Positions 7,100-60,631 of a DNA stretch of 64,000 bases are shown piece by piece. The notes beneath the pieces are model-generated. The model was not told the DNA's origin. It ran no database searches and saw only the letters and a program-made list of their open reading frames with translations. Origin of the DNA: Pseudomonadota bacterium. Lineage in GTDB: Bacteria > Bdellovibrionota_F > JAHFAK01 > JBDREC01. Made by a program: the position numbers and the translations under genes. The DNA lies in assembly GCA_043820105.1 (NCBI GenBank), contig JBDREC010000030.1, positions 2,888 through 66,887 of the forward strand, written 5' to 3'. The stretch's first letter is position 1; each line of letters opens with the position of its first letter.

Positions 7100-7275
7100 A
7101 ACGGAAATTGTGAAATGTGCGGCAAATATGTGTTTGAAAAATTGTATCGCACTTTTTTAAAACTATTCCAAATTCTAGAATTTGTTTCTTAATTTTAAAA
7201 AATCCATAAATAATATTATCAAACCCATTGATTTTATTCAATTCACGGTTCTGGCATTTGAATTGCATAGAATTA

Positions 7276-19823: not shown

Positions 19824-20702
19824 TCTTGTTAACTTTCTACGACTCGTATCACCTGTATAGAGTGGATTAGAATTGTCATGGATTTGTCTTTTCTTTATGA
19901 AAGTTAGTTCGCAATGAAAATATTGATTAACTTCCCATTGGCTACATCCAAAAATATGACAATTTCCAGGATTTATTCCAGATAACCAGTTAAAATCTAG
20001 TGTTGTGTCTGAGACATGTGTCATGCATCGATCGCTAATATTACTATAGCAGGCTCTTTGAGCTTCTCTGATTTCAGCTCTTTCTATTTCCCACTCTCTT
20101 AAATAGTCATCAACATTAGGAACTTCATTATCTTCGCCAGATTCCCTGATTTCAATATTTTTAAAATTACCTAGACATTCTTTTATTTCATTGGTTTTTA
20201 ATAAATCTTTGTCTCTACGAGTTGTTCTTCTTCCTCGAAGTTGCTCTGAAATGACGATATATGGATAACCTATAGTGGGTCTCATAATTCTTAAAGATGG
20301 TTCTTCTGAATTTTCATCTATGCTAAAAGCATCTGCATATAAATCCATAGAATAGATATGAATTTTACCTTCTGTATCTTGTGTGTGAATACGGGCTGAC
20401 ATTGCATGTGGTACATCTCCCCATATTGTATCAGTATCATTGTTATAATACAAAACAAGGTCCTGGCTTTCAATTATTGTTTCACCGTCCCTGAGGTTCA
20501 ACAAGGGAAGCATTTTATTATTTAAACATGAATTTGCTTCCTGTGAAAAGGTGAATTTTTTGCCTCGAAAAGAGTCTTGAGCATAGCTTGGCTGAATGCT
20601 TAGTAAAGCCCCTAAAATAATTATATAATATTTTAATTTTATAAGCTTTTTCATTATTGCCTTTGCCATTTTACATTCCTCTACAATTAACAAAAGCAAC
20701 AA
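19812..20702 (-). CDS. Secreted Cys-containing hypothetical protein
   Basis: Signal peptide (IIILGALLSIQPSYA). Ten Cys in the mature part. No recognised domain. Confidence 0.5.
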   Translation of the reverse strand: MLLLLIVEECKMAKAIMKKLIKLKYYIIILGALLSIQPSYAQDSFRGKKFTFSQEANSCLNNKMLPLLNLRDGETIIESQDLVLYYNNDTDTIWGDVPHAMSARIHTQDTEGKIHIYSMDLYADAFSIDENSEEPSLRIMRPTIGYPYIVISEQLRGRRTTRRDKDLLKTNEIKECLGNFKNIEIRESGEDNEVPNVDDYLREWEIERAEIREAQRACYSNISDRCMTHVSDTTLDFNWLSGINPGNCHIFGCSQWEVNQYFHCELTFIKKRQIHDNSNPLYTGDTSRRKLTRLSL

Positions 20703-20794
20703 GTATGCCAGATGGCAATAATCGAAATTAACAAATTAATTCGTAGTCTTATCTAATGGCTTGCAGAATTTTATGTTAAAATTGCTTAATAATA

Positions 20795-26535: not shown

Positions 26536-26793
26536 TGTATCACTCCTTAAAGTAAAATTTATTAAAGATTATAAAAACAATAATCCTTAAATACCCCTCT
26601 TCATGTCATCTCATGTATTGTGCAACTGCAGTGCCAGGCTTGCAATGTTAAAAAGTACATTCATTACAGTTGGTTAAATATCAAGGAAATAACTATTTTA
26701 TGTTAAACTGTGAGGAATTAATTCAATTTAATCTTCAAGTGAGACAGATATGACTCTTTCTTGCATAAGTTTTTTCAAATGTTCCTGGGACAT

Positions 26794-29708: not shown

Positions 29709-29911
29709 GTGGTAAGTTGTAAGTGGTAAGTAGAGCAAGTTTTTTCCTGTGGAATCAATTTTAGCTCATTTTATTTCAATTTTCTTAATTATAATTATAA
29801 TCTTTATCCTTAAATTAGTTAGTAAATTAAACGACTTATCTCTATTTTTAAAAAATGGCACATCTATTGCATTTATTATCTTAAAAGTATTTTCAAGTAT
29901 AAGGAATAATA

Positions 29912-30250
29912 ATGAAGACTGGGAAACAAATGATAAAATTTATTCTGATTATAGCGATATTAAGACTTTCAGTTTTTATGCTAATTGGTTGTGGGTCAGA
30001 AATAGACCAATCAATTGATGCAGCTTATCTTATGTACCCAAGTCAATGCTATGTTGATCAAGCTGAATTTGCAAACGCTTCTGAAATCATTTCTCAAACA
30101 ACAAGATTTAAAGTATCAGAAATCACGTTAACAGCAGAAATTGATGAGGATGAAGATGGAATATACGACGAGTGTCAAAATTACAAACAAAGCAATCAAG
30201 CCCAAGTCATTTCAATCCAAGACGAAGAAATCGAAACTTTTCAAAACTAA
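29912..30250 (+). CDS. Small acidic lipoprotein, hypothetical
   Basis: Lipobox LIGCGS. 112 aa. Confidence 0.45.
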   Translation: MKTGKQMIKFILIIAILRLSVFMLIGCGSEIDQSIDAAYLMYPSQCYVDQAEFANASEIISQTTRFKVSEITLTAEIDEDEDGIYDECQNYKQSNQAQVISIQDEEIETFQN

Positions 30251-32321: not shown

Positions 32322-32729
32322 TTATAAAAAAGTTTTGTATCCCACATTAAGTATCTTTTCGAGGCGTTTTGCCATAGATTTGCCAATAGGTCTTTTTCCA
32401 TTTTCCATTTTTGATATATTGCTTTGCAAAACTCCTAGCTTTTTAGCTAATTCCAATTGACTTAAACCCTCTTTGAGTCTTGCTCCTTTTATAAATGTCC
32501 CCTTATTTTCTAAAACAGAATCATCAAATGCCTCTTTCCAAGGAATTGATTTTTCATAGCTTGATGACTTTAAATTATGAAATTCTTCTAAAAGTTTAAT
32601 GATAATTTTTAATATGCCAGAAGTAACTTGAAACTTTTTCCTTTCTTTGTTTGGAAAATGAACAACAATGTAAGGAGTATTTTTCTTAATAAGGTGCTTT
32701 CTCTCTTGTACCAACATAATATACCTCAA
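32322..32729 (-). CDS. HTH (XRE-family) antitoxin, HigA-like
   Basis: C-terminal helix-turn-helix LSQLELAKKLGVLQSNISKMENGKRPI. Overlaps the 3' end of the upstream toxin ORF. Confidence 0.65.
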   Translation of the reverse strand: MRYIMLVQERKHLIKKNTPYIVVHFPNKERKKFQVTSGILKIIIKLLEEFHNLKSSSYEKSIPWKEAFDDSVLENKGTFIKGARLKEGLSQLELAKKLGVLQSNISKMENGKRPIGKSMAKRLEKILNVGYKTFL

Positions 32730-33048
32730 TTATTTTAATTTTTTTGTCTATTAATTCCCAACAAACAACGTAGCTTGGTTTTCCTTTTTTAGTAATATGA
32801 CAATGATGTTTGTTTTCACTCAGCTTACTATAATTTGGCCAATTACCTCTAACAGGACCATAGTTTTCCATTTCCTTGAACAGTGTAGAAAGAAGAAACT
32901 GTATTTTATGGGGCAATCTTGGCATCCTTTTTTTCACTGAATTCTTTAGAAAAACCTCCCAATTTATTCTTCCATTATATGTCATTTTTAGACCTATGTC
33001 AAATATATATTGACATATTAATATTGCAATTTTAAGACCAAAAAACAA
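32686..33048 (-). CDS. RelE/ParE-superfamily toxin (HigB/YafQ-like)
   Basis: C-terminal pattern HHCHITKKGKPSYVVCWELIDKKIKIIEVYYVGTREKAPY. Toxin-first order with a downstream HTH antitoxin. The true start is probably the internal MTYNG at 32986. Confidence 0.6.
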   Translation of the reverse strand: MFFGLKIAILICQYIFDIGLKMTYNGRINWEVFLKNSVKKRMPRLPHKIQFLLSTLFKEMENYGPVRGNWPNYSKLSENKHHCHITKKGKPSYVVCWELIDKKIKIIEVYYVGTREKAPY

Positions 33049-33423: not shown

Positions 33424-33933
33424 TTAGTCTTCTTGATTTATGAGTATTGATCCATCCTTGTATGCATCGCCTCCACCTGCCAAATCTCTTTTAATCAATT
33501 GCCAATATTTCGATTTTATTCCATCATCATCTAAATCTTGTTGTATTACTATTAAACAGGCTGTTGTTGGATCTAAAATATCTTCTTCACACTCAACTTT
33601 AGCGCCACCATATGTATCTTGGTCTGGAACAAAACCAATTATTTTAAATCCATTTGTATCGCCTGCAAATGCTGCCTGAGAACCTGCTTGCTTATCTCCG
33701 TTTAATAAATTTACATCCATTGTTGGCATTCCAAGTGGAATATGATGAAATTTTGCATTATCAATATTGTAGTCAGCTTCAGCAGCAAATATGCCGTTTA
33801 TAAGTGCGTTAACTTCTGACTTTTTAGACTTCTTGATATAAGCCATAAAACTTGGGATTGCGATTGCTGCCAAGATGCCGATAATGGCAACAACAATTAT
33901 TAGTTCAACTAGTGTAAAGCCTTTCTTTTTCAT
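33424..33933 (-). CDS. Type IV pilin / pseudopilin (prepilin N-terminal cleavage-methylation domain)
   Basis: [29 protein letters not shown], the canonical class III signal. No other pil genes nearby. Confidence 0.8.
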
Positions 33934-34067
33934 TTTTTTCTCCTCTTTGTTATTAATGAAACAAGCTTGTAGATAATACTAGCAACTTTCATGCCAAAAA
34001 TAGCAATATTATAACTAATTGATTTCATTGAAACGCGAAAATAGAAAATCCTTGTAAAAAGCAAAAA

Positions 34068-34106
34068 GTGACAAAATTTGTCACGTGACATGACAAAATT
34101 TGTCAC
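34068..34106. promoter_or_regulatory. Two adjacent copies of the 17-bp perfect palindrome GTGACAAAATTTGTCAC
   Basis: Read directly in the pilin-upstream / hipA-downstream spacer. Further copies lie at 34153-34169 and 35999-36015. Confidence 0.6.
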
Positions 34107-34152
34107 TCGATTTTTAAGCTGCTGTTATCATTGATTGAATGCGCCGCAGCAA

Positions 34153-34169
34153 GGTGACGAAATTTGTCA
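34153..34169. promoter_or_regulatory. Third palindrome copy (GTGACGAAATTTGTCAC), part of the conserved module palindrome-CTCTAAnnGTGTT-G tract
   Basis: A similar module is found at 35999-36050. Confidence 0.6.
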
Positions 34170-34192
34170 CTTCTCTAATAGTGTTAGTTTCC

Positions 34193-34218
34193 AGGGGGGG
34201 GGGGGGGGGGGCGGGGGG
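34193..34218. repeat. Homopolymeric tract G19-C-G6
   Basis: Counted directly. Extremely atypical for this AT-rich DNA. The paralogous module at 36038-36044 has only G7. Confidence 0.9.
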
Positions 34219-34265
34219 TTATATTAAAAGAATGTCCTAGTAATCTGTTTTATTGATTGTTTTTA

Positions 34266-35510
34266 TTATTTTTTGCTAAAGAGCTTTTTAGCAACTTTTT
34301 GGTGATACTCTATAATATGCTTAATATCTCTATCAAAAAGATCAAGACTTTTTGCAAGTTTTTTAAATTGAGATATCGCACTTCTAACTTCATCTATTAT
34401 TGCTTTTTTATCATATTCTGAAATTTGAAAAAGTTTAGCCAGGTGATCAAGTTCTCTTATTGAAGGATTTTTTCCTTCACCTGCAATTGTCATTGAATGT
34501 TCACCACCCATGCCTTGTGAAAACATTAAATCATAAGCTGGAGCAAAAGACCAAGTTCCGTTTTTATTCATTAAAAAAGCAAAGTTTTTCACATGATCAT
34601 CCCTGTTAGAGGACAAAATGTTAAAAACCATTAATCTATAGCACATTTTAACTGATTCAAAATCATGTGTAAGTTTTGAGCAAACCTTTAAAAGGGTTTC
34701 ATAATCAACAGATGGCACCCTAAAATCAGCGTGTATTAAATTTCCAAAAGAGTGAAAATGAATTCTTTGATTTCCTTTTCTGTCAAATCTTTTAGTTCCA
34801 AAATAATAATTATTTTTATTATCTTGAAACAAGTGATATTCTGGAATTATAATGCCAGCAGCTTCTGCCATTTGTGAATAAATATACTCTATTTTTCCAG
34901 CTTCTAAAAAGTCGTTTTCAGATCTAAATTTTATCATCCATGCTTCATAATTTTTTGGTAGATCTGACTCTTTTGAAATTAAATCTTTACCATTAAATCC
35001 TACAAGAATTTTGGGTCTGGCTCCACCTGGAGATCCGCCAGTTCTAAAAAGGATGGGCAAAATATCTTTTTCATTTCCTTTTAAAATTTCAATTGAATTT
35101 TGAGAAAGCTCATATAGATTTACTGTTTCATTCTTTTTAAGTTTTAAATCCATAGCTGGTTCATAAGTTAAAGCCCCTATAGTCCTGTTAGCTACAAATA
35201 ACAATCTATCAATATGAGAAATTTCTCTTAAATCCAAGCCTTGTTTATTAAAAAAACGATCTTGTAATAAAAGCCCCCAACCATCTGGCATAGAATCATT
35301 AAATACACCATGAATATAACCTAAGAATGCTTTTTTACATACCTGAAGTCCCATACGACAATCAAGTTTGAATGGTGAAATGTTTATGTTTTTTGAAAGA
35401 AAATTTGAATCATATTCAAAATAAATTCTTTTTTTATTATCCTGAACAATTTGTCCCAATAGTGTCGAATCATTGGAAGAGGTAGTGTAGAAAACCTTTA
35501 CTTTTTTCAT
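34266..35510 (-). CDS. hipA: HipA-family Ser/Thr kinase toxin
   Basis: The N-terminal HipA coupling domain motif (PDGWGLLLQDRFF) and the catalytic region (DDHVKNFAFLM) are both present. 4-nt overlap with the upstream hipB-like gene. Confidence 0.8.
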   Translation of the reverse strand: MKKVKVFYTTSSNDSTLLGQIVQDNKKRIYFEYDSNFLSKNINISPFKLDCRMGLQVCKKAFLGYIHGVFNDSMPDGWGLLLQDRFFNKQGLDLREISHIDRLLFVANRTIGALTYEPAMDLKLKKNETVNLYELSQNSIEILKGNEKDILPILFRTGGSPGGARPKILVGFNGKDLISKESDLPKNYEAWMIKFRSENDFLEAGKIEYIYSQMAEAAGIIIPEYHLFQDNKNNYYFGTKRFDRKGNQRIHFHSFGNLIHADFRVPSVDYETLLKVCSKLTHDFESVKMCYRLMVFNILSSNRDDHVKNFAFLMNKNGTWSFAPAYDLMFSQGMGGEHSMTIAGEGKNPSIRELDHLAKLFQISEYDKKAIIDEVRSAISQFKKLAKSLDLFDRDIKHIIEYHQKVAKKLFSKK

Positions 35511-35815
35511 AATCTTCCTCTTTTTTTCATTTTAATTTTTTCCAGTTTTTCAATATCTTTAATTGATTTTGTTTCAATTTCAGGAAAAAGACACAAGAAA
35601 TCTTCCAAACAATTCAATGCACTAGCAATTTTCAATAAGGATTCAAAAGAAATTTTCCCTGTTAATTCAAATCTTTTAAGGCTTGCTTCAGTAACATTGG
35701 ATTTTTTGGCCAAGGTGCTGCGTTTAAGGTTATGCTGCAAACGCAGGATTTTAGCTTTTTGAGAGACCTTTTTCATTAGCTCAAAGGGAGTATATATATT
35801 AATTTTATGGCTCAT
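35507..35815 (-). CDS. hipB: HipB-like HTH (XRE) antitoxin
   Basis: HTH LKRSTLAKKSNVTEASLKRFE. Translationally coupled to hipA. Confidence 0.7.
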   Translation of the reverse strand: MSHKINIYTPFELMKKVSQKAKILRLQHNLKRSTLAKKSNVTEASLKRFELTGKISFESLLKIASALNCLEDFLCLFPEIETKSIKDIEKLEKIKMKKRGRL

Positions 35816-35998
35816 ATATTAATCTTTGCAAGGCTTAAATGGTATTAATAGATATTATATTGTCTATTATCAGGAATGTCAAGAGTGAATTGGAAAGTTT
35901 TTTCTGTCTTCAATTAATTATTAGTTTATTAATCTTCAGTGTCAGTATTGATATTCCCAGAAAGATAAGCATTAAAACATGACAATTTTTGCCATAGG

Positions 35999-36050
35999 GT
36001 GACAAATTTTGTCACTACTCTAAGGGTGTTTATTCGAGGGGGGGAGGTGC
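35999..36050. promoter_or_regulatory. Fourth palindrome copy plus CTCTAAGGGTGTTTATTCGAG-G7 module
   Basis: GTGACAAATTTTGTCAC followed by a sequence paralogous to 34170-34218. Lies between the hepT stop and the hipB promoter region. Confidence 0.6.
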
Positions 36051-36051
36051 G

Positions 36052-36420
36052 TTATATGGAAATCAGCCTTTTGAAGCTCTTAAGATACAAAGGAAGTTTA
36101 TCATATAATTCATTTGCAAGTTTTTCTTTATACATATGTGCAATCTGATTTCTAGCATCTGTTATTTCCAGCCAAATTTCATCATATTCAAGTAATTCTT
36201 GTTTATATGCTTCTCTAAAAGTTGCTTTAGGAGAATTGGATATTATTCCATGAATATCTTCAAGATATGTTTTTAGCATTTTCCATGAAAGATCAAAGGT
36301 GAATTCAAAACGTTGAATAGCTGAATCTCGCATATATTCAGTTTTATCCTGTTTTAAAACATCATCCAGTCTATTAACAGCTTTGTTTAGCTGTTGTTTA
36401 ATTGCTTCAAGTTTAGTCAT
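36052..36420 (-). CDS. hepT: HepT-like toxin (nucleotidyltransferase substrate-binding protein, HI0074 family / DUF86)
   Basis: 122 aa with the family pattern ...RDSAIQRFEFTFDLSWKMLK...; paired with the upstream MNT gene by an 8-nt overlap. Confidence 0.7.
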   Translation of the reverse strand: MTKLEAIKQQLNKAVNRLDDVLKQDKTEYMRDSAIQRFEFTFDLSWKMLKTYLEDIHGIISNSPKATFREAYKQELLEYDEIWLEITDARNQIAHMYKEKLANELYDKLPLYLKSFKRLISI

Positions 36421-36730
36421 TTATTTTTATTTCCTCTATATTTTGCATTGCTACTTTTTTAAACTCTTCTGAAACTTGTGTAAAATCAACAAGCTCTATT
36501 TTATATAAATAGGGAAGGTTTTCAATATCTTCTTTTATTTTTTCCATTTTTTCTATTGGAATTTGTAAAGTGCCTAAAAGTCCAACATCAATATCTGACC
36601 TTTCTGAACCTTTGCCAGAAACCCTTGAACCAAAGTAAAAGACTCTAAATTCTTCTAAATTTAAGTGCTTTCCTAGAATTTGAATAATATTTGATGTCAA
36701 TTTATTTTTATTACAATTTTTAAAATTCAT
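36413..36730 (-). CDS. mntA: MNT-type nucleotidyltransferase antitoxin (HI0073 family)
   Basis: GSRVSGKGSERSDIDVGLL, the minimal nucleotidyltransferase motif. Confidence 0.7.
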   Translation of the reverse strand: MNFKNCNKNKLTSNIIQILGKHLNLEEFRVFYFGSRVSGKGSERSDIDVGLLGTLQIPIEKMEKIKEDIENLPYLYKIELVDFTQVSEEFKKVAMQNIEEIKIND

Positions 36731-43803: not shown

Positions 43804-43980
43804 GTTTATTAATTTAAAATAATTCGCGACATTCAATACACAAGCAGTTAATTGCAACAAAAATATTGCCCCAAATTATCATTTAATTACATGTATTTAA
43901 AAAACGACCAAGCCATTGCCACGTGGCATCATTTTTGCATGCTTATTTTGCTAAATTTATTTTTCATTATAGGGCATTTT

Positions 43981-46900
43981 ATGAGACTAATTACTTTTTC
44001 ACTAAAGATAAAAAACTGTTTTTCTTATTTCTTAATTATAGCTGTTCAATTTTTGTTTATATTAGAATTAAGTTTATATGCTTCTTCAGAAAACTGTATG
44101 AGGCTTTTTTCAGATGAAAGAATTATTTCAACCCAAGATAGCCAGCAAGTAAATAAAGAAACCGCACAACAAGCATCTGCTAACTCACAAAGAAATTCTG
44201 CTAAAGATAAAATCATTTTTTCAATTAATGCTCCAAAGAGTATTTCGAATAAAGTAGAACTAGCTTCTGAAATGTTAGAAAGAGAAATGCAGGCAAATTA
44301 TGGATCATACTCATCAGAGCACCCAGTATTTAAATATGTTGAATCCATTTTAAAGGATATCTTTGCAGGTCTTGATGGAAAGCCTTTCAAGTTAATAGTA
44401 ACGAAAGGATGGGAAGAAGTAAATGCATGTGTTTTAGGCAATGGAACAATTATTTTTTCAGACAGATTACTAACTTTTTGTGAAACTGTAGAAGAGCTTC
44501 ATTTTATTTTAAGTCACGAAGTAATACATGCAAAAAAGCATCTCAAAGAATATGAAGACAAACAGGATACAACAGTTGGAACACTCTTAAAAGACTTCTA
44601 TCAAAACCTGTTTAGGGATAGAATGCAAGAGTATGAAGCAGATATTAGAGGTTTTACAGAAGGGTCGGGTTCAAGTGATTCAATTATTAATCCTTATGGA
44701 GGGATTGTTTTTTTTAATCGCTTAATGGAAATTGAAAGATCTTCTAAAAGCAAATATAATCGCAGCTTTAATTATGGTCTTACTCATGGTAGAAGTGCAG
44801 ATAGGCTTTTAAACCTTCACTTTGCAACAAGATTAGTTGATATTGACAATCTCTCAAGAGATTTGACTGTAATTCCTGATGAAATAAGAGACAAACTAGA
44901 TTTTCGAAGGTCTTTAGAAAAAGAAATATTGAAACCATTGGAAGTTAAATCAGGAGAAGATCTAAGTAATATTATTTCTGCAAGAGAAGCAGCTTTGGAA
45001 AAAGCTAATTTTTATATATTAAAAAATGCAGTGTCCATTTTATATAAGAGATATATGGATAAATATTCATCAAGGAGAACTGCCAGTGATAGTGATAATT
45101 TTTTAGAACCAATTGAAAAAGAGTTTTTACTTAAAACTCTTAATGCCTTTAAAAAAGAAATCGATATAATTTTAGAAGAAAAAAAGGTTCCAGTTTTTTT
45201 AAGGCCCTTATTCCGTGGAATAATAATTGCTTTAAGTTCTGATTTGCCAATAGAAGATGCAAGACCAATGCTTGATGGCTCTGACCCGGAAAATGCATTA
45301 GCCTGTTTTAGAGATTTTTTTGATTATTTTGAAGATAAGGCTGACTACCTTGATTTGCCTGATAATTTGGAAGAATTTGCAAAACTTGATTTGCCTCTTA
45401 CAAATAAACCAAAAGAACTCCTGCAATTTTTGATAAATGAATCTTTAGATGAGGAAATTTTTAGTGATAATCAGGGCAATTTTGACCTTGGACTATATAG
45501 AGACTATGTGCGCAGGCTAAGTGAGTCAACAAAGAAACTTTATGATAAAGTTGGATTAACTAAAGATATAGATTCAAATATGCTTTATGCAGAACTTTTG
45601 CCTTATGCTTTATTAAACTATTCAAGAGATGAAATGAATCAAGTTGCCCAGGATCTTATCTTAGATGTTGGTGAAAATATGAATGATTTTTATGAAGCAG
45701 CCAGAAAGGATGTGGAAATTCCCGAGAAAGTATTAGATAAAGCAAAAAAGAATTTAGAGGAAAGTGATAATAAAAAAGATATATCACCAAAAAGAAAAGA
45801 GTTTTTGGATATAGCAATGGAATACCTTAATAGCTTTAGAGACTTTATAAAGAATCCTCCAGAGGAATTTGAATCAGAATTTATAGCGGAATCTGCTTTT
45901 ATTGAAAATCATAGCAAAACATTTATAAGTAAAATAGATTCATTTGCATGGAAAACTCAAGAAGAAGTAATTATAGCATTAACAAAATTATTCAGAGAAG
46001 ATCTCAATAAAGAAGACATTAGAAAAGTTGTAAAGCTAATATTTGAATGCCCGGACTTTTTCTCAAGTAAAAGATCTTATATTGATGAGAATATGAGTCC
46101 AGTAGGTAAGGCTGCATTTTTAGTTAGAATATTAAGATTCTGTTTTGATTTTGATGAGTTTGGCTCCCTTGTTGGACACAAGGCTTCAATTCCAGATTTT
46201 CTTAACAATGGTTTTAGCTTTACTAGCAGATGGGAATATATTGATAAAAGAACAAATAATGCAGAAATTAAAGAACTCTATAAAATGCTTTTTCATAATA
46301 TAGAATCTATTAATGATCTTAAAGCTACAGAAACAAAAAAAGACGAAGCAATAGAAGATTCATATAATCAAATATATTTTGCTTATTTAGATTACTTGAG
46401 CAAAGAAAAAAATATAGAAGAGTTTAGAATATTATTTGATGATATAATAGATATTGCTCCTAGAAATAGCACTGAGTTTTTAGAATTTCAATTAACAGCA
46501 GCAGCATCTATTTTTGAAAATTATGATTTTGATTTTTCTAATCCTGAGCATTTAGACCTTTATATAAAAGCATGTTCTTTGGTTCCAGATAGTGTACTTG
46601 CTTCGCAGTTAGTTGAAAATGGTCTGGAAAAAGCTTTTGATTATCTGGATAACAAAACACTTGAAAATTATTTATTTCAAGATGAAAGGCTTGCTTTTTT
46701 ATCATTAACAAAAATTAGATCTAGATACATAAATGAGCGTATCCGATCAGTTGAACATCTTGACAGAGCTTTAGAAAAAATCGCCTCAGCCTCTATTCCA
46801 AAACAGCAATCAATACAAGAAAGGGGAGGCAAAGCTTTAATAGGAAATGAAATATTGGATATCTTAATTAATGACCCATTTAATTTTCTCAAAATCGCAA

Positions 46901-48675
46901 TTTTTGAAAGACATTCAGACATGAAGCTTAAAACAGCCTTACTAAATGCCTATCTTTTTTATGTTGAAAATATTGTGCATTTGGGTGGTAACCCTGCAGA
47001 CAGAAGAACAGAAGAAGATTTTATTGGTTTTGCAAGCCATTATGAAAGAATGTTTTCTTTAGATAATGTCACAAAACATAATATTTTAAAAAAATTATTA
47101 ATTGGAGAAAATGGTGTCTTAAGAAATGAAAGTAAGAAGCTAGAAATGCTTGAGCTTATATTGGAAGTTCTAGTCAGAGAAGGAAAAACAGATGCAGAGA
47201 GCAGGCTACGCTCAATATTGAGCATTGGTTTAAAATCCATTGCAATGCAGGCAGATGATATTTCATTATATTTTTTCATAGCAAACTTTTTACATGATCA
47301 AATGTTTATAAGACCTGAAAGTGAAAGCTCTTGGGTTGATGTACTGATTGAATCAGATGTTTTCAAAGATTATAGCAGAGAGTATTACAAAAAAGAAGAA
47401 CTTGAAGAACTTGCTAAACCAATTGCCAATGCTATTAGTAGCTCTCCAAGTGCTAAACATGACAGTTATATTTTTTATGAAGGATCTAGTCCAAATTTAG
47501 ATCTTTTAAGAAGAAATCTTTTTGATAAAGCTTCAAGATACTTGCCAAGCATAGAAGGAGGTGAAAAGAAAAATTACTCGCCAGTTGAATTCATTGTTGA
47601 AGTAGCAAGCAACTTATATGCACCAGGTAAAAGAGCATTACAAATAATGGGACAATATCTAGAGATCCCTGAAGAGTTTGAAGAAGATTTTTCAAAGGTC
47701 TATGATGCAATGGAAGGTCAGTCTAAGTTATCAGGCTATCACACCTTGAAAAGAAACTGGGAAGGTTCAGAAGAAGAGCTTCTTGATTTTGGTTTATATG
47801 AAGGGGGTGGCTCTTTGGTAACAGTGTGGAAGGCAGAAACAAAAAGAAATGGTACTGAAGTTTTAAGAGTGCTAAACCCTAATGTAGAATATCACATGCA
47901 AGAGATATGTGATATTTTAGAAGAAGCTTTTAGGAAGCTAGAAGCAGAATATCCTGATGCAAGACTTGCAGTACTTGCAGTTAATGATATAAGAGAGTGG
48001 ATAAGACGAGATATTAATGACCAAAACTTTTGGGATAATGATGTAATTTTTCATGATTTACACCATGGGTTTTCTGCACCTGGTTCTGGGTTTAGTATTT
48101 ATATCCCAAAGTCTTATGAACCAAGATCTGCTAAAGTAAAAAGAGAAGAATATATTGAGGGCATAAATCTAACAAGATGGCAAGGCACAGAAGAAGAAAG
48201 AAAAGATATAGTAAGTTCAATTGTAGTAAATTTTATTTATCAAATTGGAAATGGCTTAGTTTTATCTGATATTCATCCCGGTAATATTAGAATTATGAAT
48301 GGCAATAAAATTGCCTATCTTGACAGGAATCTTTATATTGAAATCACAGGAGCAGAAAAGGACTTATTATCATCTGTTATAACTGGACAAGAATTAATAA
48401 TTATTGATACTTTTACTTCATATTTACAGGAAATACCTGAAAACAGAAACATTAATGTTCAGGCAATCCTTGAAAATGCAGTCTTAGCATCTTCAAACAT
48501 TAATGACCCAACAAAAAGATTTTTAGATATCCTGGTAAAGGTAAAATCTTCAAATATCAAAGTACCCTTAAAAATTACCTTATTAATTAAAAATGCTTTA
48601 GCTCTAAATAAAATGTCTAAAAAAGCAGGCTTTAATAGTTTAGTTGAAGCAGCAATGTATCCACATACAAGATAG
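43981..48675 (+). CDS. Giant membrane-anchored multidomain protein: M48-like HExxH peptidase domain, long helical region, C-terminal UbiB/ABC1-like atypical kinase domain
   Basis: N-terminal hydrophobic helices. VNACVLGNGTIIFSDRLL...ELHFILSHEVIHAKKH is the M48/M56 pattern. The C-terminus has a Gly-rich loop EGGGSLVTVWKAE, DIHPGNIRI (compare ABC1 DPHPGNI) and a YLDRN DFG-like motif. Start moved to the Met at 43981 (MRLITFSL). Confidence 0.65.
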   Translation: MRLITFSLKIKNCFSYFLIIAVQFLFILELSLYASSENCMRLFSDERIISTQDSQQVNKETAQQASANSQRNSAKDKIIFSINAPKSISNKVELASEMLEREMQANYGSYSSEHPVFKYVESILKDIFAGLDGKPFKLIVTKGWEEVNACVLGNGTIIFSDRLLTFCETVEELHFILSHEVIHAKKHLKEYEDKQDTTVGTLLKDFYQNLFRDRMQEYEADIRGFTEGSGSSDSIINPYGGIVFFNRLMEIERSSKSKYNRSFNYGLTHGRSADRLLNLHFATRLVDIDNLSRDLTVIPDEIRDKLDFRRSLEKEILKPLEVKSGEDLSNIISAREAALEKANFYILKNAVSILYKRYMDKYSSRRTASDSDNFLEPIEKEFLLKTLNAFKKEIDIILEEKKVPVFLRPLFRGIIIALSSDLPIEDARPMLDGSDPENALACFRDFFDYFEDKADYLDLPDNLEEFAKLDLPLTNKPKELLQFLINESLDEEIFSDNQGNFDLGLYRDYVRRLSESTKKLYDKVGLTKDIDSNMLYAELLPYALLNYSRDEMNQVAQDLILDVGENMNDFYEAARKDVEIPEKVLDKAKKNLEESDNKKDISPKRKEFLDIAMEYLNSFRDFIKNPPEEFESEFIAESAFIENHSKTFISKIDSFAWKTQEEVIIALTKLFREDLNKEDIRKVVKLIFECPDFFSSKRSYIDENMSPVGKAAFLVRILRFCFDFDEFGSLVGHKASIPDFLNNGFSFTSRWEYIDKRTNNAEIKELYKMLFHNIESINDLKATETKKDEAIEDSYNQIYFAYLDYLSKEKNIEEFRILFDDIIDIAPRNSTEFLEFQLTAAASIFENYDFDFSNPEHLDLYIKACSLVPDSVLASQLVENGLEKAFDYLDNKTLENYLFQDERLAFLSLTKIRSRYINERIRSVEHLDRALEKIASASIPKQQSIQERGGKALIGNEILDILINDPFNFLKIAIFERHSDMKLKTALLNAYLFYVENIVHLGGNPADRRTEEDFIGFASHYERMFSLDNVTKHNILKKLLIGENGVLRNESKKLEMLELILEVLVREGKTDAESRLRSILSIGLKSIAMQADDISLYFFIANFLHDQMFIRPESESSWVDVLIESDVFKDYSREYYKKEELEELAKPIANAISSSPSAKHDSYIFYEGSSPNLDLLRRNLFDKASRYLPSIEGGEKKNYSPVEFIVEVASNLYAPGKRALQIMGQYLEIPEEFEEDFSKVYDAMEGQSKLSGYHTLKRNWEGSEEELLDFGLYEGGGSLVTVWKAETKRNGTEVLRVLNPNVEYHMQEICDILEEAFRKLEAEYPDARLAVLAVNDIREWIRRDINDQNFWDNDVIFHDLHHGFSAPGSGFSIYIPKSYEPRSAKVKREEYIEGINLTRWQGTEEERKDIVSSIVVNFIYQIGNGLVLSDIHPGNIRIMNGNKIAYLDRNLYIEITGAEKDLLSSVITGQELIIIDTFTSYLQEIPENRNINVQAILENAVLASSNINDPTKRFLDILVKVKSSNIKVPLKITLLIKNALALNKMSKKAGFNSLVEAAMYPHTR

Positions 48676-53469: not shown

Positions 53470-54378
53470 TTACGCTTTTGGGTGTGTCCTATCATATTCT
53501 TCAATCAACTTATTAACACTTACTTTAGTATAACGTTGAGTTGTGGATAACATTGAATGTCCCAAAAGCTCTTGAATACTTCTTAAGTCAACCCCTGAAT
53601 CTAAAAGATGAGTTGCAAAGGTGTGTCTAAAAACGTGAGGTGTAACTTTTTTTTGGATTCCATTTCTTTTTAAATACTTATCAATTATTCTTGAAATTCC
53701 TTTTTGAGAAATTCTATTTTTACTTTTATTCAAAAATAAAGGTTTAGAATCATTGGAAACAGAATTATAATCAATACCTACAATATCAAGATATCTTGTC
53801 ATTGCAAACTTTGCTTTATTTCCAAATAAGACGATTCTTTCTTTGTTACCTTTACCAATTAATCGAATACATTTATCATTAAAATCTACATTACTTGTAT
53901 TTAACGAAACAAGCTCACTTACTCTCACACCAGATGCGTATAAAAGTTCAAGTATAGCTCGATCTCTTAATTCTTGCCATGAATCACCATTTGCTGATTC
54001 GATTAAAGTGAATACCTCATCAACTGACATAGTTAATGGTAGATATTTTTTTCTTTTAGGTGTAGCAACATTTTTTGCAATATTTTCTTTTACCTTACCT
54101 TCCGTTTTCATGTAAGTCATAAAGCTTCTTAAGCTTGCTATTTTCCTTGCTAAAGTTGTGCTTGAATTTTTGTTATATAAATAAGCTAAAAAAGCTCTGA
54201 TATGTTGAACTGAAATTATATTTAAATCAAAGGGATCATTAAATGATTTAAGAATTTTTTGCTCAAGTAAGAATCTTGAAAAATCTTCTAAGTCATTTGA
54301 ATAGTTCCTTAGTGTATGACTTGAATAGTGTTTAACATTTTTTAAATATTCAATGAAATCTTTGATATGCTTTTTCAT
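53470..54378 (-). CDS. xerC: Tyrosine recombinase XerC/CodV
   Basis: C-terminal catalytic box HVFRHTFATHLLDSGVDLRSIQELLGHSMLSTTQRYTKV. Sits upstream of hslVU as in the Bacillus codVWX arrangement. Confidence 0.85.
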   Translation of the reverse strand: MKKHIKDFIEYLKNVKHYSSHTLRNYSNDLEDFSRFLLEQKILKSFNDPFDLNIISVQHIRAFLAYLYNKNSSTTLARKIASLRSFMTYMKTEGKVKENIAKNVATPKRKKYLPLTMSVDEVFTLIESANGDSWQELRDRAILELLYASGVRVSELVSLNTSNVDFNDKCIRLIGKGNKERIVLFGNKAKFAMTRYLDIVGIDYNSVSNDSKPLFLNKSKNRISQKGISRIIDKYLKRNGIQKKVTPHVFRHTFATHLLDSGVDLRSIQELLGHSMLSTTQRYTKVSVNKLIEEYDRTHPKA

Positions 54379-60495: not shown

Positions 60496-60540
60496 GGAGA
60501 GATGGCTGAGCTGGCCGAAAGCGTCCGACTCGAAATCGGA
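60496..60540 (+). pseudogene. 5' fragment of a tRNA-Ser (anticodon CGA): acceptor 5' strand, class-II D-arm and complete anticodon arm only
   Basis: GGAGAGA-TG-GCTGAGCTGGCCGAAAGC-G-TCCGA-CTCGAAA-TCGGA. No variable-arm stem, T-arm (GGTTCGAATCC-like) or acceptor 3' strand in the next 150 nt. Confidence 0.5.
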
Positions 60541-60631
60541 TAGGTGGTATTTCATGCGAATAAATTGACATGAATTTGCCAATATAATAGATTACTGTTC
60601 TCTTTATAAATTCTACAAGTAAGGGTTAATT

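What the first reader, a model, noticed from the sequence alone, without database searches (positions are those of the whole stretch)
34068..36050. Repeated 17-bp perfect palindrome GTGACAAAWTTTGTCAC and a paralogous module ending in hypervariable G tracts (G19 vs G7)
Four copies of the palindrome occur: three in the pilin-promoter / hipA-3' spacer and one in the hepT-3' / hipB-promoter spacer. Two of them are followed by the same ~25-nt sequence (CTCTAAnnGTGTTnnTTnnAG) and then a G homopolymer. One tract is 19 G plus C plus 6 G. The other is 7 G.

A 19-mer G tract in ~30% GC DNA is a strong slipped-strand substrate, so expression of the adjacent pilin and/or TA operons may be phase-variable. 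The palindrome is a plausible operator for one of the HTH antitoxins (HipB or the XRE antitoxin) or an att-like recombination site. As written in the minus-strand sense, each module lies immediately after a toxin gene stop (hipA, hepT), so it may also be a 3' structured element.
Basis: seen in the sequence. Interest (0 to 1): 0.7.

Follow-up and report, generated by a model that had tools for sequence, protein, structure and literature searches.

The report
Pilin enhancer sites, duplicated spacer, G18 tract
The repeated palindrome is most likely the binding site of the activator protein that switches on the neighbouring type IV pilin gene, an ordinary and widespread arrangement. The long G run sits in a duplicated piece of spacer beside an inserted toxin-antitoxin cassette and has no demonstrable switching role.

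Summary
There are four copies of GTGACAAAWTTTGTCAC (two perfect, two with one mismatch) and a fifth degenerate copy. A ~60-72 nt direct repeat brackets hipBA. The long tract is G18-C-G6, not G19-C-G6, and the other is G7.

The palindrome is not a toxin-antitoxin operator. These loci come from many phyla. A sigma-54 -24/-12 promoter usually lay in between, and sometimes an NtrC-family response-regulator gene ended just upstream.

The window has the same layout. Three palindromes lie 143-229 nt upstream of the pilin ATG, followed by an IHF-like site and TGGCATGAAAGTTGCT. This is a PilR-type enhancer of a sigma-54 pilin promoter.

The module is a local duplication. It includes the hepT stop codon, a G-rich spacer and one enhancer site, and it flanks an inserted hipBA cassette. 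Homologous hipBA and hepT cassettes elsewhere lack it.

The G18 tract is surely slippage-prone. It lies in no credible gene and outside the enhancer-to-promoter interval, so phase variation is unsupported. No close relatives or reads were available.

Verdict: a known kind of regulatory site plus an unexplained homopolymer. Interest is low to moderate.

The parts
33424..33933 (-). Type IV pilin gene (169 aa; N-terminus [25 protein letters not shown])
   Evidence: Pfam N_methyl, E = 6.6e-9. Translation.
33981..33996 (-). Sigma-54 -24/-12 promoter TGGCATGAAAGTTGCT, 47 nt upstream of the pilin ATG
   Evidence: The pattern TGGCAYN5TTGCW has 6 hits in the window against 0.19 expected.
34012..34024 (-). 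IHF-consensus match AATCAATTAGTTA between the enhancer sites and the -24 element
   Evidence: The pattern is not enriched window-wide (15 hits against 13 expected). Only its position is suggestive.
34068..34084 (.). Palindrome 1 (perfect). Proximal PilR-type enhancer site, centre 143 nt from the pilin ATG. On the minus strand it is followed by TTTTTGCTTT, which is terminator-like.
34090..34106 (.). Palindrome 2 (1 mismatch), 22 nt from palindrome 1
34154..34170 (.). Palindrome 3 (1 mismatch), 64 nt from palindrome 2. Part of repeat copy A.
34153..34224 (.). Direct-repeat copy A (palindrome 3 + CTCTAATAGTGTTAGTTTCCAG + G18CG6 + TTATAT), on the hipA-3' side of the hipBA cassette
   Evidence: (D2, D8)
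34194..34218 (.). G18-C-G6 tract (C6-G-C18 on the hipBA-sense strand)
34266..35510 (-). hipA toxin gene
   Evidence: Pfam HipA_C and Couple_hipA. 68-69% identical homologues sit in unrelated contexts.
35507..35815 (-). hipB antitoxin gene (HTH_3)
35854..35882 (-). Perfect-consensus sigma-70 promoter of hipBA (TTGACA-17-TATAAT), conserved with L119 and L120
35979..35995 (.). Degenerate palindrome 5 (ATGACAATTTTTGCCAT, 4 mismatches)
35999..36015 (.). Palindrome 4 (perfect). Part of repeat copy B. No sigma-54 promoter downstream of it.
35998..36057 (.). Direct-repeat copy B (palindrome 4 + CTCTAAGGGTGTTTATTCGAG + G7AGGTGCG + TTATAT). Its TTA at 36052-36054 is the hepT stop codon.
36038..36044 (.). 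G7 tract
36052..36420 (-). HepT-like (HI0074 family, NTase_sub_bind) toxin gene
36413..36730 (-). MNT-type nucleotidyltransferase antitoxin gene

Best explanation
The 17-bp palindromes are upstream activator (enhancer) sites for a PilR-type, NtrC-family sigma-54 activator that drives the adjacent type IV pilin gene.

Inferred mechanism, taken from how this family works:
1. Activator dimers bind palindromes 1-3, which lie about 105-190 nt upstream of the start site.
2. They oligomerise.
3. DNA bent at the IHF-like site brings them to sigma-54 RNA polymerase closed at TGGCATGAAAGTTGCT.
4. ATP hydrolysis opens the promoter.

The 'module' is not a functional unit of its own. It is a ~60-72 nt segmental direct repeat containing the last codons and stop of hepT, a G-rich spacer and the distal enhancer site. 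It now brackets a hipBA cassette that carries its own sigma-70 promoter and was inserted into the hepT-pilin intergenic enhancer region. Copy B, next to hepT, is the original. Copy A was duplicated with the insertion.

In copy A the G-rich spacer (about G7-N-G6 in copy B) has expanded by replication slippage to G18-C-G6. The tract is probably length-unstable. It sits in no credible ORF (only two short plus-strand ORFs cross it) and is distal to the enhancer-to-promoter interval, so I predict little or no effect on pilin or TA expression.

On the hipBA and hepT mRNAs the tract is a C-rich, G-poor stretch directly after the stop codon. Together with the palindrome hairpin and its T run, it may help terminate read-through into the pilin enhancer.

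Shown: the sequence features and the cross-phylum association with pilin genes. Inferred: the identity of the binding protein, the order of evolutionary events, slippage, and any terminator role.
For: - In 42 of them a pilin N-terminal motif (GFTLIELMIVV-type) lies within 400 nt.
- In 42 of those 42 the palindrome is on the 5' side of the pilin gene. Random positions in the same loci give a mean of 5.9 and a maximum of 13.
- The distance from palindrome centre to pilin ATG is 119-316 nt. The window's three sites are at 143, 165 and 229 nt.
- Hosts span Gamma- and Betaproteobacteria, Myxococcota, Thermodesulfobacteriota, Acidobacteriota, Hydrogenedentota, Aquificota and Ignavibacteria. Many are 55-70% G+C genomes, where this AT-rich 17-mer cannot be a chance match.

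(b) Sigma-54 -24/-12 elements lie between palindrome and pilin in those loci and in the window (33981-33996).

(c) In 9 loci a gene with a GAFTGA motif ends within 400 nt of the palindrome. In eight of them its last residues form a Fis-type HTH C-terminus (...SFRALRYRLKKL...). Three of the five proteins extracted were scanned and are REC-AAA+-HTH response regulators. This is the pilR-pilA arrangement.

(d) Second, degenerate copies about 21-23 or 42-53 nt away occur in 13 of 43 pilin-associated loci. The window's spacings are 22 and 64 nt.

(e) An IHF consensus match sits between the sites and the promoter. This matches the UAS-IHF-sigma-54 model published for the commensal Neisseria pilE promoter (PMC6528607).

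(f) The literature gives the P. aeruginosa PilR site as TGT-N11-ACA (PMC8035640). The junction of palindromes 1 and 2 reads TGT-N11-ACA (read directly from the sequence).

(g) The module is local.
- The repeat alignment is significant.
- It includes the hepT stop codon in copy B only.
- The nearest hipBA relatives (69% HipA identity) share the hipB promoter and both genes, but neither palindrome, module nor G tract.
- hepT relatives have no C tract or module after the stop.
- A scan of JGI metagenome contigs for the module found nothing.

(h) Tract position: only two short plus-strand ORFs cross it, and neither has a Shine-Dalgarno sequence. It lies distal to palindrome 3.
Against: - No pilR, pilS or rpoN gene is in the window (motif search). 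The rest of the MAG could not be searched.
- The exact 17-mer was not found in the paper library as a published PilR box. The protein assignment therefore rests on genomic association.
- The same palindrome occurs in a different setting in L076: four perfect copies, plus a one-mismatch copy, among iteron-like repeats. The sequence alone is not diagnostic.
- About 60% of scan hits are not next to a recognisable pilin. Some lie at locus edges and some are probably chance hits in AT-rich Firmicutes.
- The two repeat copies are only ~76% identical, yet both keep near-perfect palindromes and the CTCTAA and GTGTT blocks. A purely neutral duplication does not explain this.
- No known insertion mechanism gives a 60-72 nt flanking duplication. 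Campbell-type integration or unequal recombination is conjecture.
- G18 could be partly an assembly or sequencing artefact.
Confidence: 0.65

Rival explanations
1. Phase-variation switch. Slipped-strand changes in the G18 tract switch expression of the pilin and/or the hipBA operon on and off.
For: G18 is far beyond the length at which homopolymers become hypermutable (established knowledge). It is an extreme outlier in a 31.7% G+C window, where no other G or C run exceeds 7. It lies near a surface-structure gene, the usual target of contingency loci. Poly-C tracts in Bordetella fim promoters are a precedent (from memory).
Against: The tract is not inside a credible ORF. The only ORFs crossing it are 30 and 33 aa on the plus strand and have no Shine-Dalgarno sequence. 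It is not between -35 and -10, nor between the three proximal enhancer sites and the sigma-54 promoter. It lies distal to all of them. It is downstream of the hipA stop codon. No read or strain data were available to show variation.
Confidence: 0.1
2. Terminator/insulator element. On the minus-strand transcripts, the C-rich tract directly after the toxin stop codons acts as a Rho-loading (rut-like) site. The palindrome hairpins followed by T runs act as pause or intrinsic termination sites. Together they insulate the pilin enhancer and promoter from read-through out of the strong hipBA and MNT-hepT promoters. This can coexist with the enhancer function.
For: Both copies start immediately after, or within 40 nt of, a toxin stop codon. 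On the mRNA they read C-rich and G-poor (UAACGCACCUCCCCCCCUCGAAUAAACACCC; C6GC18). Palindrome 1 scores as a terminator-like hairpin plus TTTTTGCTTT on the minus strand. Poly(C) is the best known activator of Rho (established knowledge).
Against: Hairpin stems are AT-rich, with only 3 G-C pairs. Copy A does not fold better than shuffles (z = +0.38). hepT and hipA homologues elsewhere use ordinary hairpins or nothing. No transcript data are available. The cross-phylum conservation of the palindrome is explained by protein binding, not termination.
Confidence: 0.15
3. Recombination site. The module is an att- or attC-like site at which TA cassettes are captured, so each cassette (MNT-hepT, hipBA) ends in one module, as in an integron array.
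For: Each of two consecutive TA operons is followed by one module in the same orientation. The module contains an inverted repeat. hipBA is flanked by direct repeats.
Against: There is no integrase near the array. The only tyrosine recombinase is xerC-like, next to hslVU at 53470-54378. There is no module upstream of MNT. Related hipBA and hepT cassettes elsewhere carry no such site. The module was not found in JGI metagenome contigs. The palindrome has an independent, well-supported explanation.
Confidence: 0.07
4. Operator for the HipB or XRE antitoxin.
For: Both are HTH dimers that would bind palindromes. One palindrome pair lies upstream of hipB.
Against: The nearest palindrome (35979-35995) is about 100 nt upstream of the hipB -35 box, not overlapping the promoter. 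The conserved part of the hipB promoter shared with L119 and L120 begins at the -35 box and has no such palindrome. No palindrome lies upstream of the XRE operon. The motif tracks pilin genes in 42 unrelated genomes.
Confidence: 0.03

Closest known systems
PilS/PilR-sigma-54 control of the major type IV pilin gene (P. aeruginosa pilA, Myxococcus and Geobacter pilA, commensal Neisseria pilE with Nps/Npa)
   Same: - A -24/-12 promoter directly upstream of the pilin gene.
- Activator sites about 100-200 nt upstream.
- An IHF-like site in between.
- In related loci, the response-regulator gene lies immediately upstream.
- The published P. aeruginosa site TGT-N11-ACA is reproduced at the junction of palindromes 1 and 2.
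   Different: - No pilS/pilR or rpoN gene in the window.
- An unusually high number of near-perfect sites: three proximal, plus a separated pair 1.9 kb upstream with no promoter of its own.
- The enhancer region is interrupted by a TA cassette.
- Binding was not tested.
Simple-sequence contingency loci (for example poly-G/C tracts in Neisseria, Haemophilus and Campylobacter genes, and the poly-C tract in Bordetella fim promoters)
   Same: A long G/C homopolymer next to a pilus or fimbrial gene in a low-GC genome.
   Different: The tract is neither in a coding region nor between promoter or activator elements. No length variation has been demonstrated.
Neisseria pilE upstream G-quadruplex element for pilin antigenic variation
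   Same: A G-rich run a few hundred nt upstream of a pilin gene.
   Different: It is a homopolymer rather than a G3-loop motif. No silent pilin copies are in the window. The second copy is not next to a pilin.
Type II TA cassettes (hipBA; MNT/HepT) as small mobile insertions
   Same: hipBA has its own consensus sigma-70 promoter. It is found with 69% HipA identity in unrelated genomic contexts.
   Different: Here it is flanked by a 60-72 nt direct repeat of host spacer. This was not seen at the other loci.

Membership tests
Sigma-54-dependent, PilR-type enhancer-activated pilin promoter | A -24/-12 element (TGGCAC-N5-TTGCW) shortly upstream of a type IV pilin gene | tested here: met
   TGGCATGAAAGTTGCT lies at 33981-33996 on the minus strand, 47 nt before the ATG. 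The pilin is confirmed by Pfam N_methyl.
Sigma-54-dependent, PilR-type enhancer-activated pilin promoter | Dyad-symmetric activator sites about 80-200 nt upstream of the promoter, conserved at orthologous promoters | tested here: met
   Three sites lie 143-229 nt from the ATG. The same 17-mer lies 119-316 nt upstream of pilin genes in 42 loci from many phyla, always on the 5' side.
Sigma-54-dependent, PilR-type enhancer-activated pilin promoter | Genetic linkage of the site to an NtrC-family response regulator (pilR) | tested here: inconclusive
   Met in 9 related loci. Not met in the window, where no GAFTGA or Walker A bEBP motif was found.
Sigma-54-dependent, PilR-type enhancer-activated pilin promoter | An IHF site between enhancer and promoter | tested here: inconclusive
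   One exact WATCAANNNNTTR match lies at 34012-34024. The pattern is not enriched in the window overall.
Sigma-54-dependent, PilR-type enhancer-activated pilin promoter | Activator binds the site and transcription depends on RpoN | not testable with these tools
   Needs EMSA or footprinting, and rpoN/pilR mutants or a heterologous reporter.
Phase-variable contingency locus (simple sequence repeat) | A long homopolymer or short tandem repeat | tested here: met
   G18-C-G6 and G7 are the only G or C runs of 7 or more in 64 kb.
Phase-variable contingency locus (simple sequence repeat) | The repeat lies inside an ORF, or between promoter or activator elements, so that length changes alter expression | tested here: not met
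   The tract is downstream of the hipA stop and distal to all three proximal enhancer sites. Only spurious 30- and 33-aa ORFs cross it.
Phase-variable contingency locus (simple sequence repeat) | Length heterogeneity within populations | not testable with these tools
   No reads are available. There are no close relatives: the next-best HtpG is 52-54% identical. The module is absent from JGI metagenome contigs.
Type II antitoxin operator | A palindrome overlapping the TA operon's own promoter, conserved with the TA cassette | tested here: not met
   The hipB promoter is at 35854-35882, while the nearest palindrome is at 35979-35995. The palindrome is absent from L119 and L120 hipBA and from L121 and L122 hepT loci.
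Integron-like cassette array / att site | An adjacent integrase and repeated recombination sites at every cassette boundary | tested here: not met
   There is no integrase nearby. There is no module upstream of MNT.
Structured RNA family (Rfam) | A match to a covariance model, or a fold better than shuffles, conserved between copies | tested here: not met
   There are no hits above gathering score, and only chance-level hits at E > 1. Copy A has z = +0.38 and +0.30. Copy B on the minus strand has z = -2.6, which comes only from pairing of its two palindromes.
Neisseria-type pilE G4 antigenic-variation element | A G4 motif upstream of the expressed pilin, plus silent pilin donor copies | tested here: not met
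   tblastn and blastn of the pilin against the window give only the self hit. The rest of the genome was not searched.

The most novel reading that the evidence does not exclude
The duplicated module is maintained rather than neutral. Both copies keep a near-perfect activator site next to a C-rich tract directly after a toxin gene. In this reading the module works as a combined terminator and decoy enhancer that couples TA-operon read-through and activator titration to pilin expression. The hypermutable G18 tract would then tune that coupling stochastically, by variable-length Rho loading or a DNA-structure roadblock. This would be a phase-variable insulator between a persistence toxin operon and a sigma-54 pilin enhancer.
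Probability: 0.07. Interest if true: 0.6.

Novelty: new member of a known kind. Interest (0 to 1): 0.3.

Why it matters
It gives a concrete, testable regulatory annotation for the pilin gene of a deep-branching, uncultured, low-GC bacterium. NCBI labels it 'Pseudomonadota bacterium', and its nearest HtpG is only about 53% identical.

It also shows that one 17-bp box, GTGACAAAWTTTGTCAC, marks sigma-54 pilin enhancers across many phyla. That makes the box useful for finding major pilin genes and PilR regulons in metagenomes.

It removes a tempting but unsupported phase-variation and TA-operator reading.

The G18 tract and the repeat that brackets hipBA remain a small unexplained curiosity about how TA cassettes insert into regulatory DNA.

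Tried and rejected
- **Exact-protein look-ups** for the window's HipA, pilin and HepT, and for the best HipA homologue P0121, found nothing on record. No alternative assemblies of this locus could be compared for tract length.
- **Metagenome scan** for the module (TTTGTCACTNCTCTAANNGTGTT) gave 0 hits.
- **HtpG homologues** showed no close relative; the next best is 52-54% identical. Synteny comparison was therefore impossible.
Other copies in the same genome could not be counted.
- **Rfam**, at gathering and permissive thresholds, gave nothing relevant.
- **RNA folding** of both strands of both copies showed no significant shared structure.
- **Silent pilin cassettes:** none in the window.
- **Small plus-strand ORFs across both modules** (34139-34240 and 35999-36148). 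They resemble each other only because the DNA is repeated. They have different starts, no Shine-Dalgarno sequence and unrelated C-termini, so I judged them spurious.
- **Flanks of hipBA homologues** (L119, L120) and **hepT homologues** (L121, L122) contain no palindrome, module or C tract.
- **Literature:** the exact 17-mer or its core is not in the held papers. The papers that might show PilR or Npa footprints (PMC4474139, PMC2715724) are not held.
- **NCBIfam** has no PilR-specific model. The adjacent regulators score below every named equivalog cut-off.
- **A sigma-54 promoter downstream of palindromes 4 and 5:** none found (and inspection).
Full report
**1. Observation**

The sequence features exist, with small corrections.
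- One search finds four matches to GTGACAAAWTTTGTCAC: 34068-34084 and 35999-36015 are perfect, and 34090-34106 and 34154-34170 have one mismatch each. None was expected in 100 shuffles.
- A fifth, degenerate copy (ATGACAATTTTTGCCAT) lies at 35979-35995.
- The two 'modules' align significantly: 34153-34203 against 35998-36047 scores 52, against 21.4 +/- 3.0 for shuffles. Similarity resumes after the G run as G6/GGTGCG + TTATAT (D8).
- The long tract is G18-C-G6 (34194-34218), not G19-C-G6. The short one is G7 (36038-36044).
- These are the only G or C runs of 7 or more in the window, which is 31.7% G+C.

**2. Context**

All neighbouring genes are on the minus strand. In transcription order they are htpG, an MNT/HepT-like pair (36730-36052), hipB-hipA (35815-34266), a type IV pilin (33933-33424), an ORF of unknown function (33048-32686, no Pfam match), an XRE-type HTH gene and a CLC channel.

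The rest of the window is ordinary chromosome: an EPSP synthase-family gene, prmC, prfA, murJ, lolA, pfk, thiC and xerC-hslVU. There is no integrase near the locus and no T4P machinery. No sigma-54 activator or RpoN was found by motif search.

The source is an NCBI MAG labelled 'Pseudomonadota bacterium', on a contig of 69,171 nt. The next most similar HtpG in 5.8 billion proteins is only 52-54% identical. No close relative was available for synteny or tract-length comparison.

**3. What the palindrome is**

Many are from 55-70% G+C genomes, where this AT-rich 17-mer would not arise by chance.
- In 42 loci a pilin N-terminus (for example [27 protein letters not shown]) starts within 400 nt.
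- In all 42 the palindrome is on the 5' side of the pilin gene. Random positions in the same loci give a mean of 5.9 and a maximum of 13.
- The distance from palindrome centre to pilin ATG is 119-316 nt.
- A sigma-54 -24/-12 element is visible between palindrome and pilin in most of these loci.
- In nine loci a gene with a GAFTGA motif ends within 400 nt of the palindrome. In eight of them its last residues form a Fis-type HTH C-terminus. The three of these proteins that were scanned are REC-AAA+-HTH response regulators of the NtrC family. This is the pilR-pilA arrangement known from Geobacter and Myxococcus.
- Second, weaker copies about 21-23 or 42-53 nt away occur in 13 of 43 pilin-associated loci.

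The window shows the same architecture.
- The promoter TGGCATGAAAGTTGCT lies at 33981-33996 on the minus strand, 47 nt before the pilin ATG. This pattern occurs 6 times in the window against 0.19 expected, so the organism clearly uses sigma-54.
- An exact IHF-consensus match lies at 34012-34024.
- Three palindromes are centred 143, 165 and 229 nt from the ATG, spaced 22 and 64 nt apart.

This matches the UAS-IHF-sigma-54 model described for commensal Neisseria pilE (PMC6528607). The P. aeruginosa PilR site is quoted in the literature as TGT-N11-ACA (PMC8035640). The junction of palindromes 1 and 2 reads exactly TGT-N11-ACA.

I conclude that the palindromes are enhancer sites for a PilR-type activator. 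The protein identity is inferred from association, not shown. The exact 17-mer did not turn up as a published box in the held literature.

**4. What the module is**

The fourth palindrome, with the degenerate fifth, sits 1.9 kb further upstream. It lies between the hepT stop and the hipB promoter, and no sigma-54 promoter follows it.

The repeat unit in copy B begins with TTATAT, whose TTA is the hepT stop codon. In copy A the same hexamer is non-coding. Copy A is therefore derived from a copy-B-like sequence.

The two copies bracket hipBA, and hipBA behaves as an independent cassette.
- Its closest relatives (HipA 69% identical; L119, L120) lie in unrelated contexts.
- Homology to the window begins at the hipB -35 box, a perfect TTGACA-17-TATAAT promoter at 35854-35882, and ends at the hipA stop.
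- Those loci have no palindrome, module or G tract.

hepT relatives likewise have nothing comparable after their stop codons. The module was not found in JGI metagenome contigs.

The simplest reading is that hipBA inserted into the hepT-pilin intergenic enhancer region, with duplication of about 60 nt of flanking spacer including one enhancer site. The mechanism is conjecture: Campbell-type integration of a circle carrying that segment, or unequal recombination.

One point is left unexplained. The copies are only about 76% identical, yet both keep near-perfect palindromes and the CTCTAA and GTGTT blocks. That hints at some constraint. GTGTT resembles the (C/G)TGTC half-site reported for P. aeruginosa PilR (from memory of Jin et al. 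1994; the held papers, give TGT-N11-AGA/ACA and GTCT elements instead). This link is speculative.

**5. The G tract**

Aligned to copy B (G7-A-GGTGCG), copy A (G18-C-G6) looks like the same G-rich spacer with about 11 extra G, as replication slippage would produce.

A run of 18 G is expected to be unstable. For that to cause phase variation, the tract must sit where its length matters, and it does not.
- It is downstream of the hipA stop.
- It is distal to all three proximal enhancer sites.
- It is crossed only by 30- and 33-aa plus-strand ORFs with no Shine-Dalgarno sequence.

Length changes would therefore not alter enhancer-promoter spacing or any credible reading frame.

On the hipBA and hepT mRNAs the tract is a C-rich, G-poor segment directly after the stop codon. 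This is the composition Rho prefers. Palindrome 1 is followed by a T run on that strand and scores as terminator-like. A secondary insulating or terminating role is possible but untested.

Neither copy matches an Rfam family. Copy A folds no better than shuffles on either strand. No silent pilin copies exist in the window, so a Neisseria-type G4 recombination element is not supported. An assembly or sequencing contribution to the exact length cannot be excluded.

**6. Rivals**

- HipB or XRE operator: rejected. The position is wrong, the palindrome is not conserved with TA homologues, and the motif tracks pilins.
- att or integron-like site: unlikely. There is no integrase, no third site, and no module at other cassettes.
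- Phase-variable switch: the tract is real, but its position argues against a functional switch, and heterogeneity is untestable here.
- Terminator/insulator: compatible with the main explanation, but weakly supported.

**7. Caveat on specificity**

In L076, a contig binned as Methanomassiliicoccales, the same palindrome occurs four times perfectly, plus once with one mismatch, among iteron-like repeats next to a large ORF. This is evidently a different system. The palindrome alone is not diagnostic. The pilin, sigma-54 promoter and distance context is what supports the assignment in the window.

**8. Verdict**

The palindrome is a new example of a known kind of element: a PilR-type enhancer of a sigma-54 pilin promoter. 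The module is a local duplication created around a hipBA insertion. The G18 tract is a probable slippage product with no demonstrated function. Interest is low to moderate (0.3).

Noticed in passing
window 7252-7267(+), 20695-20710(-), 26621-26636(-), 29856-29871(+), 43924-43939(+): There are five further strong sigma-54 promoter matches (TGGCAYN5TTGCW). With the pilin promoter that makes 6 hits against 0.19 expected. Several lie just upstream of ORFs: a 23S-IVP-like gene with a ComM-like Mg-chelatase gene, a 112-aa ORF at 29912, a 620-aa ORF with no Pfam match, and a 296-aa ORF. None has the palindrome nearby, so other activators must serve them.
   Followed up: partly
L076 1-420 (CALKWP010000111.1, binned as Methanomassiliicoccales): Four perfect copies of GTGACAAAWTTTGTCAC, plus one copy with one mismatch, are interspersed with ~35-nt iteron-like repeats (ATTGACATTTGCTGTACAATTATTGTACAGCAAGAA), upstream of a 372-aa ORF. 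This looks like a plasmid or phage origin or partition region. It uses the same palindrome for something unrelated to pilins.
   Followed up: partly
window 34266-35510 and 33424-33933: The HtpG and HepT proteins of this contig are in the protein collection as NCBI entries at 100% identity. The intact-looking HipA has no hit above 69% identity, and exact look-ups for HipA and the pilin found nothing. These genes may be uncalled or marked as pseudogenes in the deposited annotation.
   Followed up: no
window 35854-35882(-) and L119 675-735: The hipB promoter is a perfect TTGACA-17-TATAAT. Its -35 to ATG stretch is conserved with hipBA loci that are only 69% identical in HipA. It includes an AATATAATATC(T/C)ATTA block that is a candidate for the real HipB operator.
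   Followed up: partly
window 60496-60606(+): A 111-nt tRNA match sits exactly at the Rfam gathering score (29.0 bits). It is much longer than a standard tRNA. It may carry an intron or insertion, or it may be a false positive.
   Followed up: no
window 43852-48675(+): A 1607-aa ORF combines a weak M48 peptidase match near the N-terminus with an ABC1 atypical-kinase domain near the C-terminus. This is an unusual giant fusion.
   Followed up: no
window 34107-34153: A G+C-rich island (GCGCCGCAGC) with a GCTGC...GCAGC inverted repeat lies between palindromes 2 and 3. It stands out in otherwise AT-rich spacer. Its function is unknown.
   Followed up: no
window 32322-33048(-): Downstream of the pilin there are a 120-aa ORF with no Pfam match and an overlapping 135-aa XRE-type HTH protein. 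This is probably a third TA-like pair. The pilin gene is therefore embedded among three TA-type modules.
   Followed up: partly
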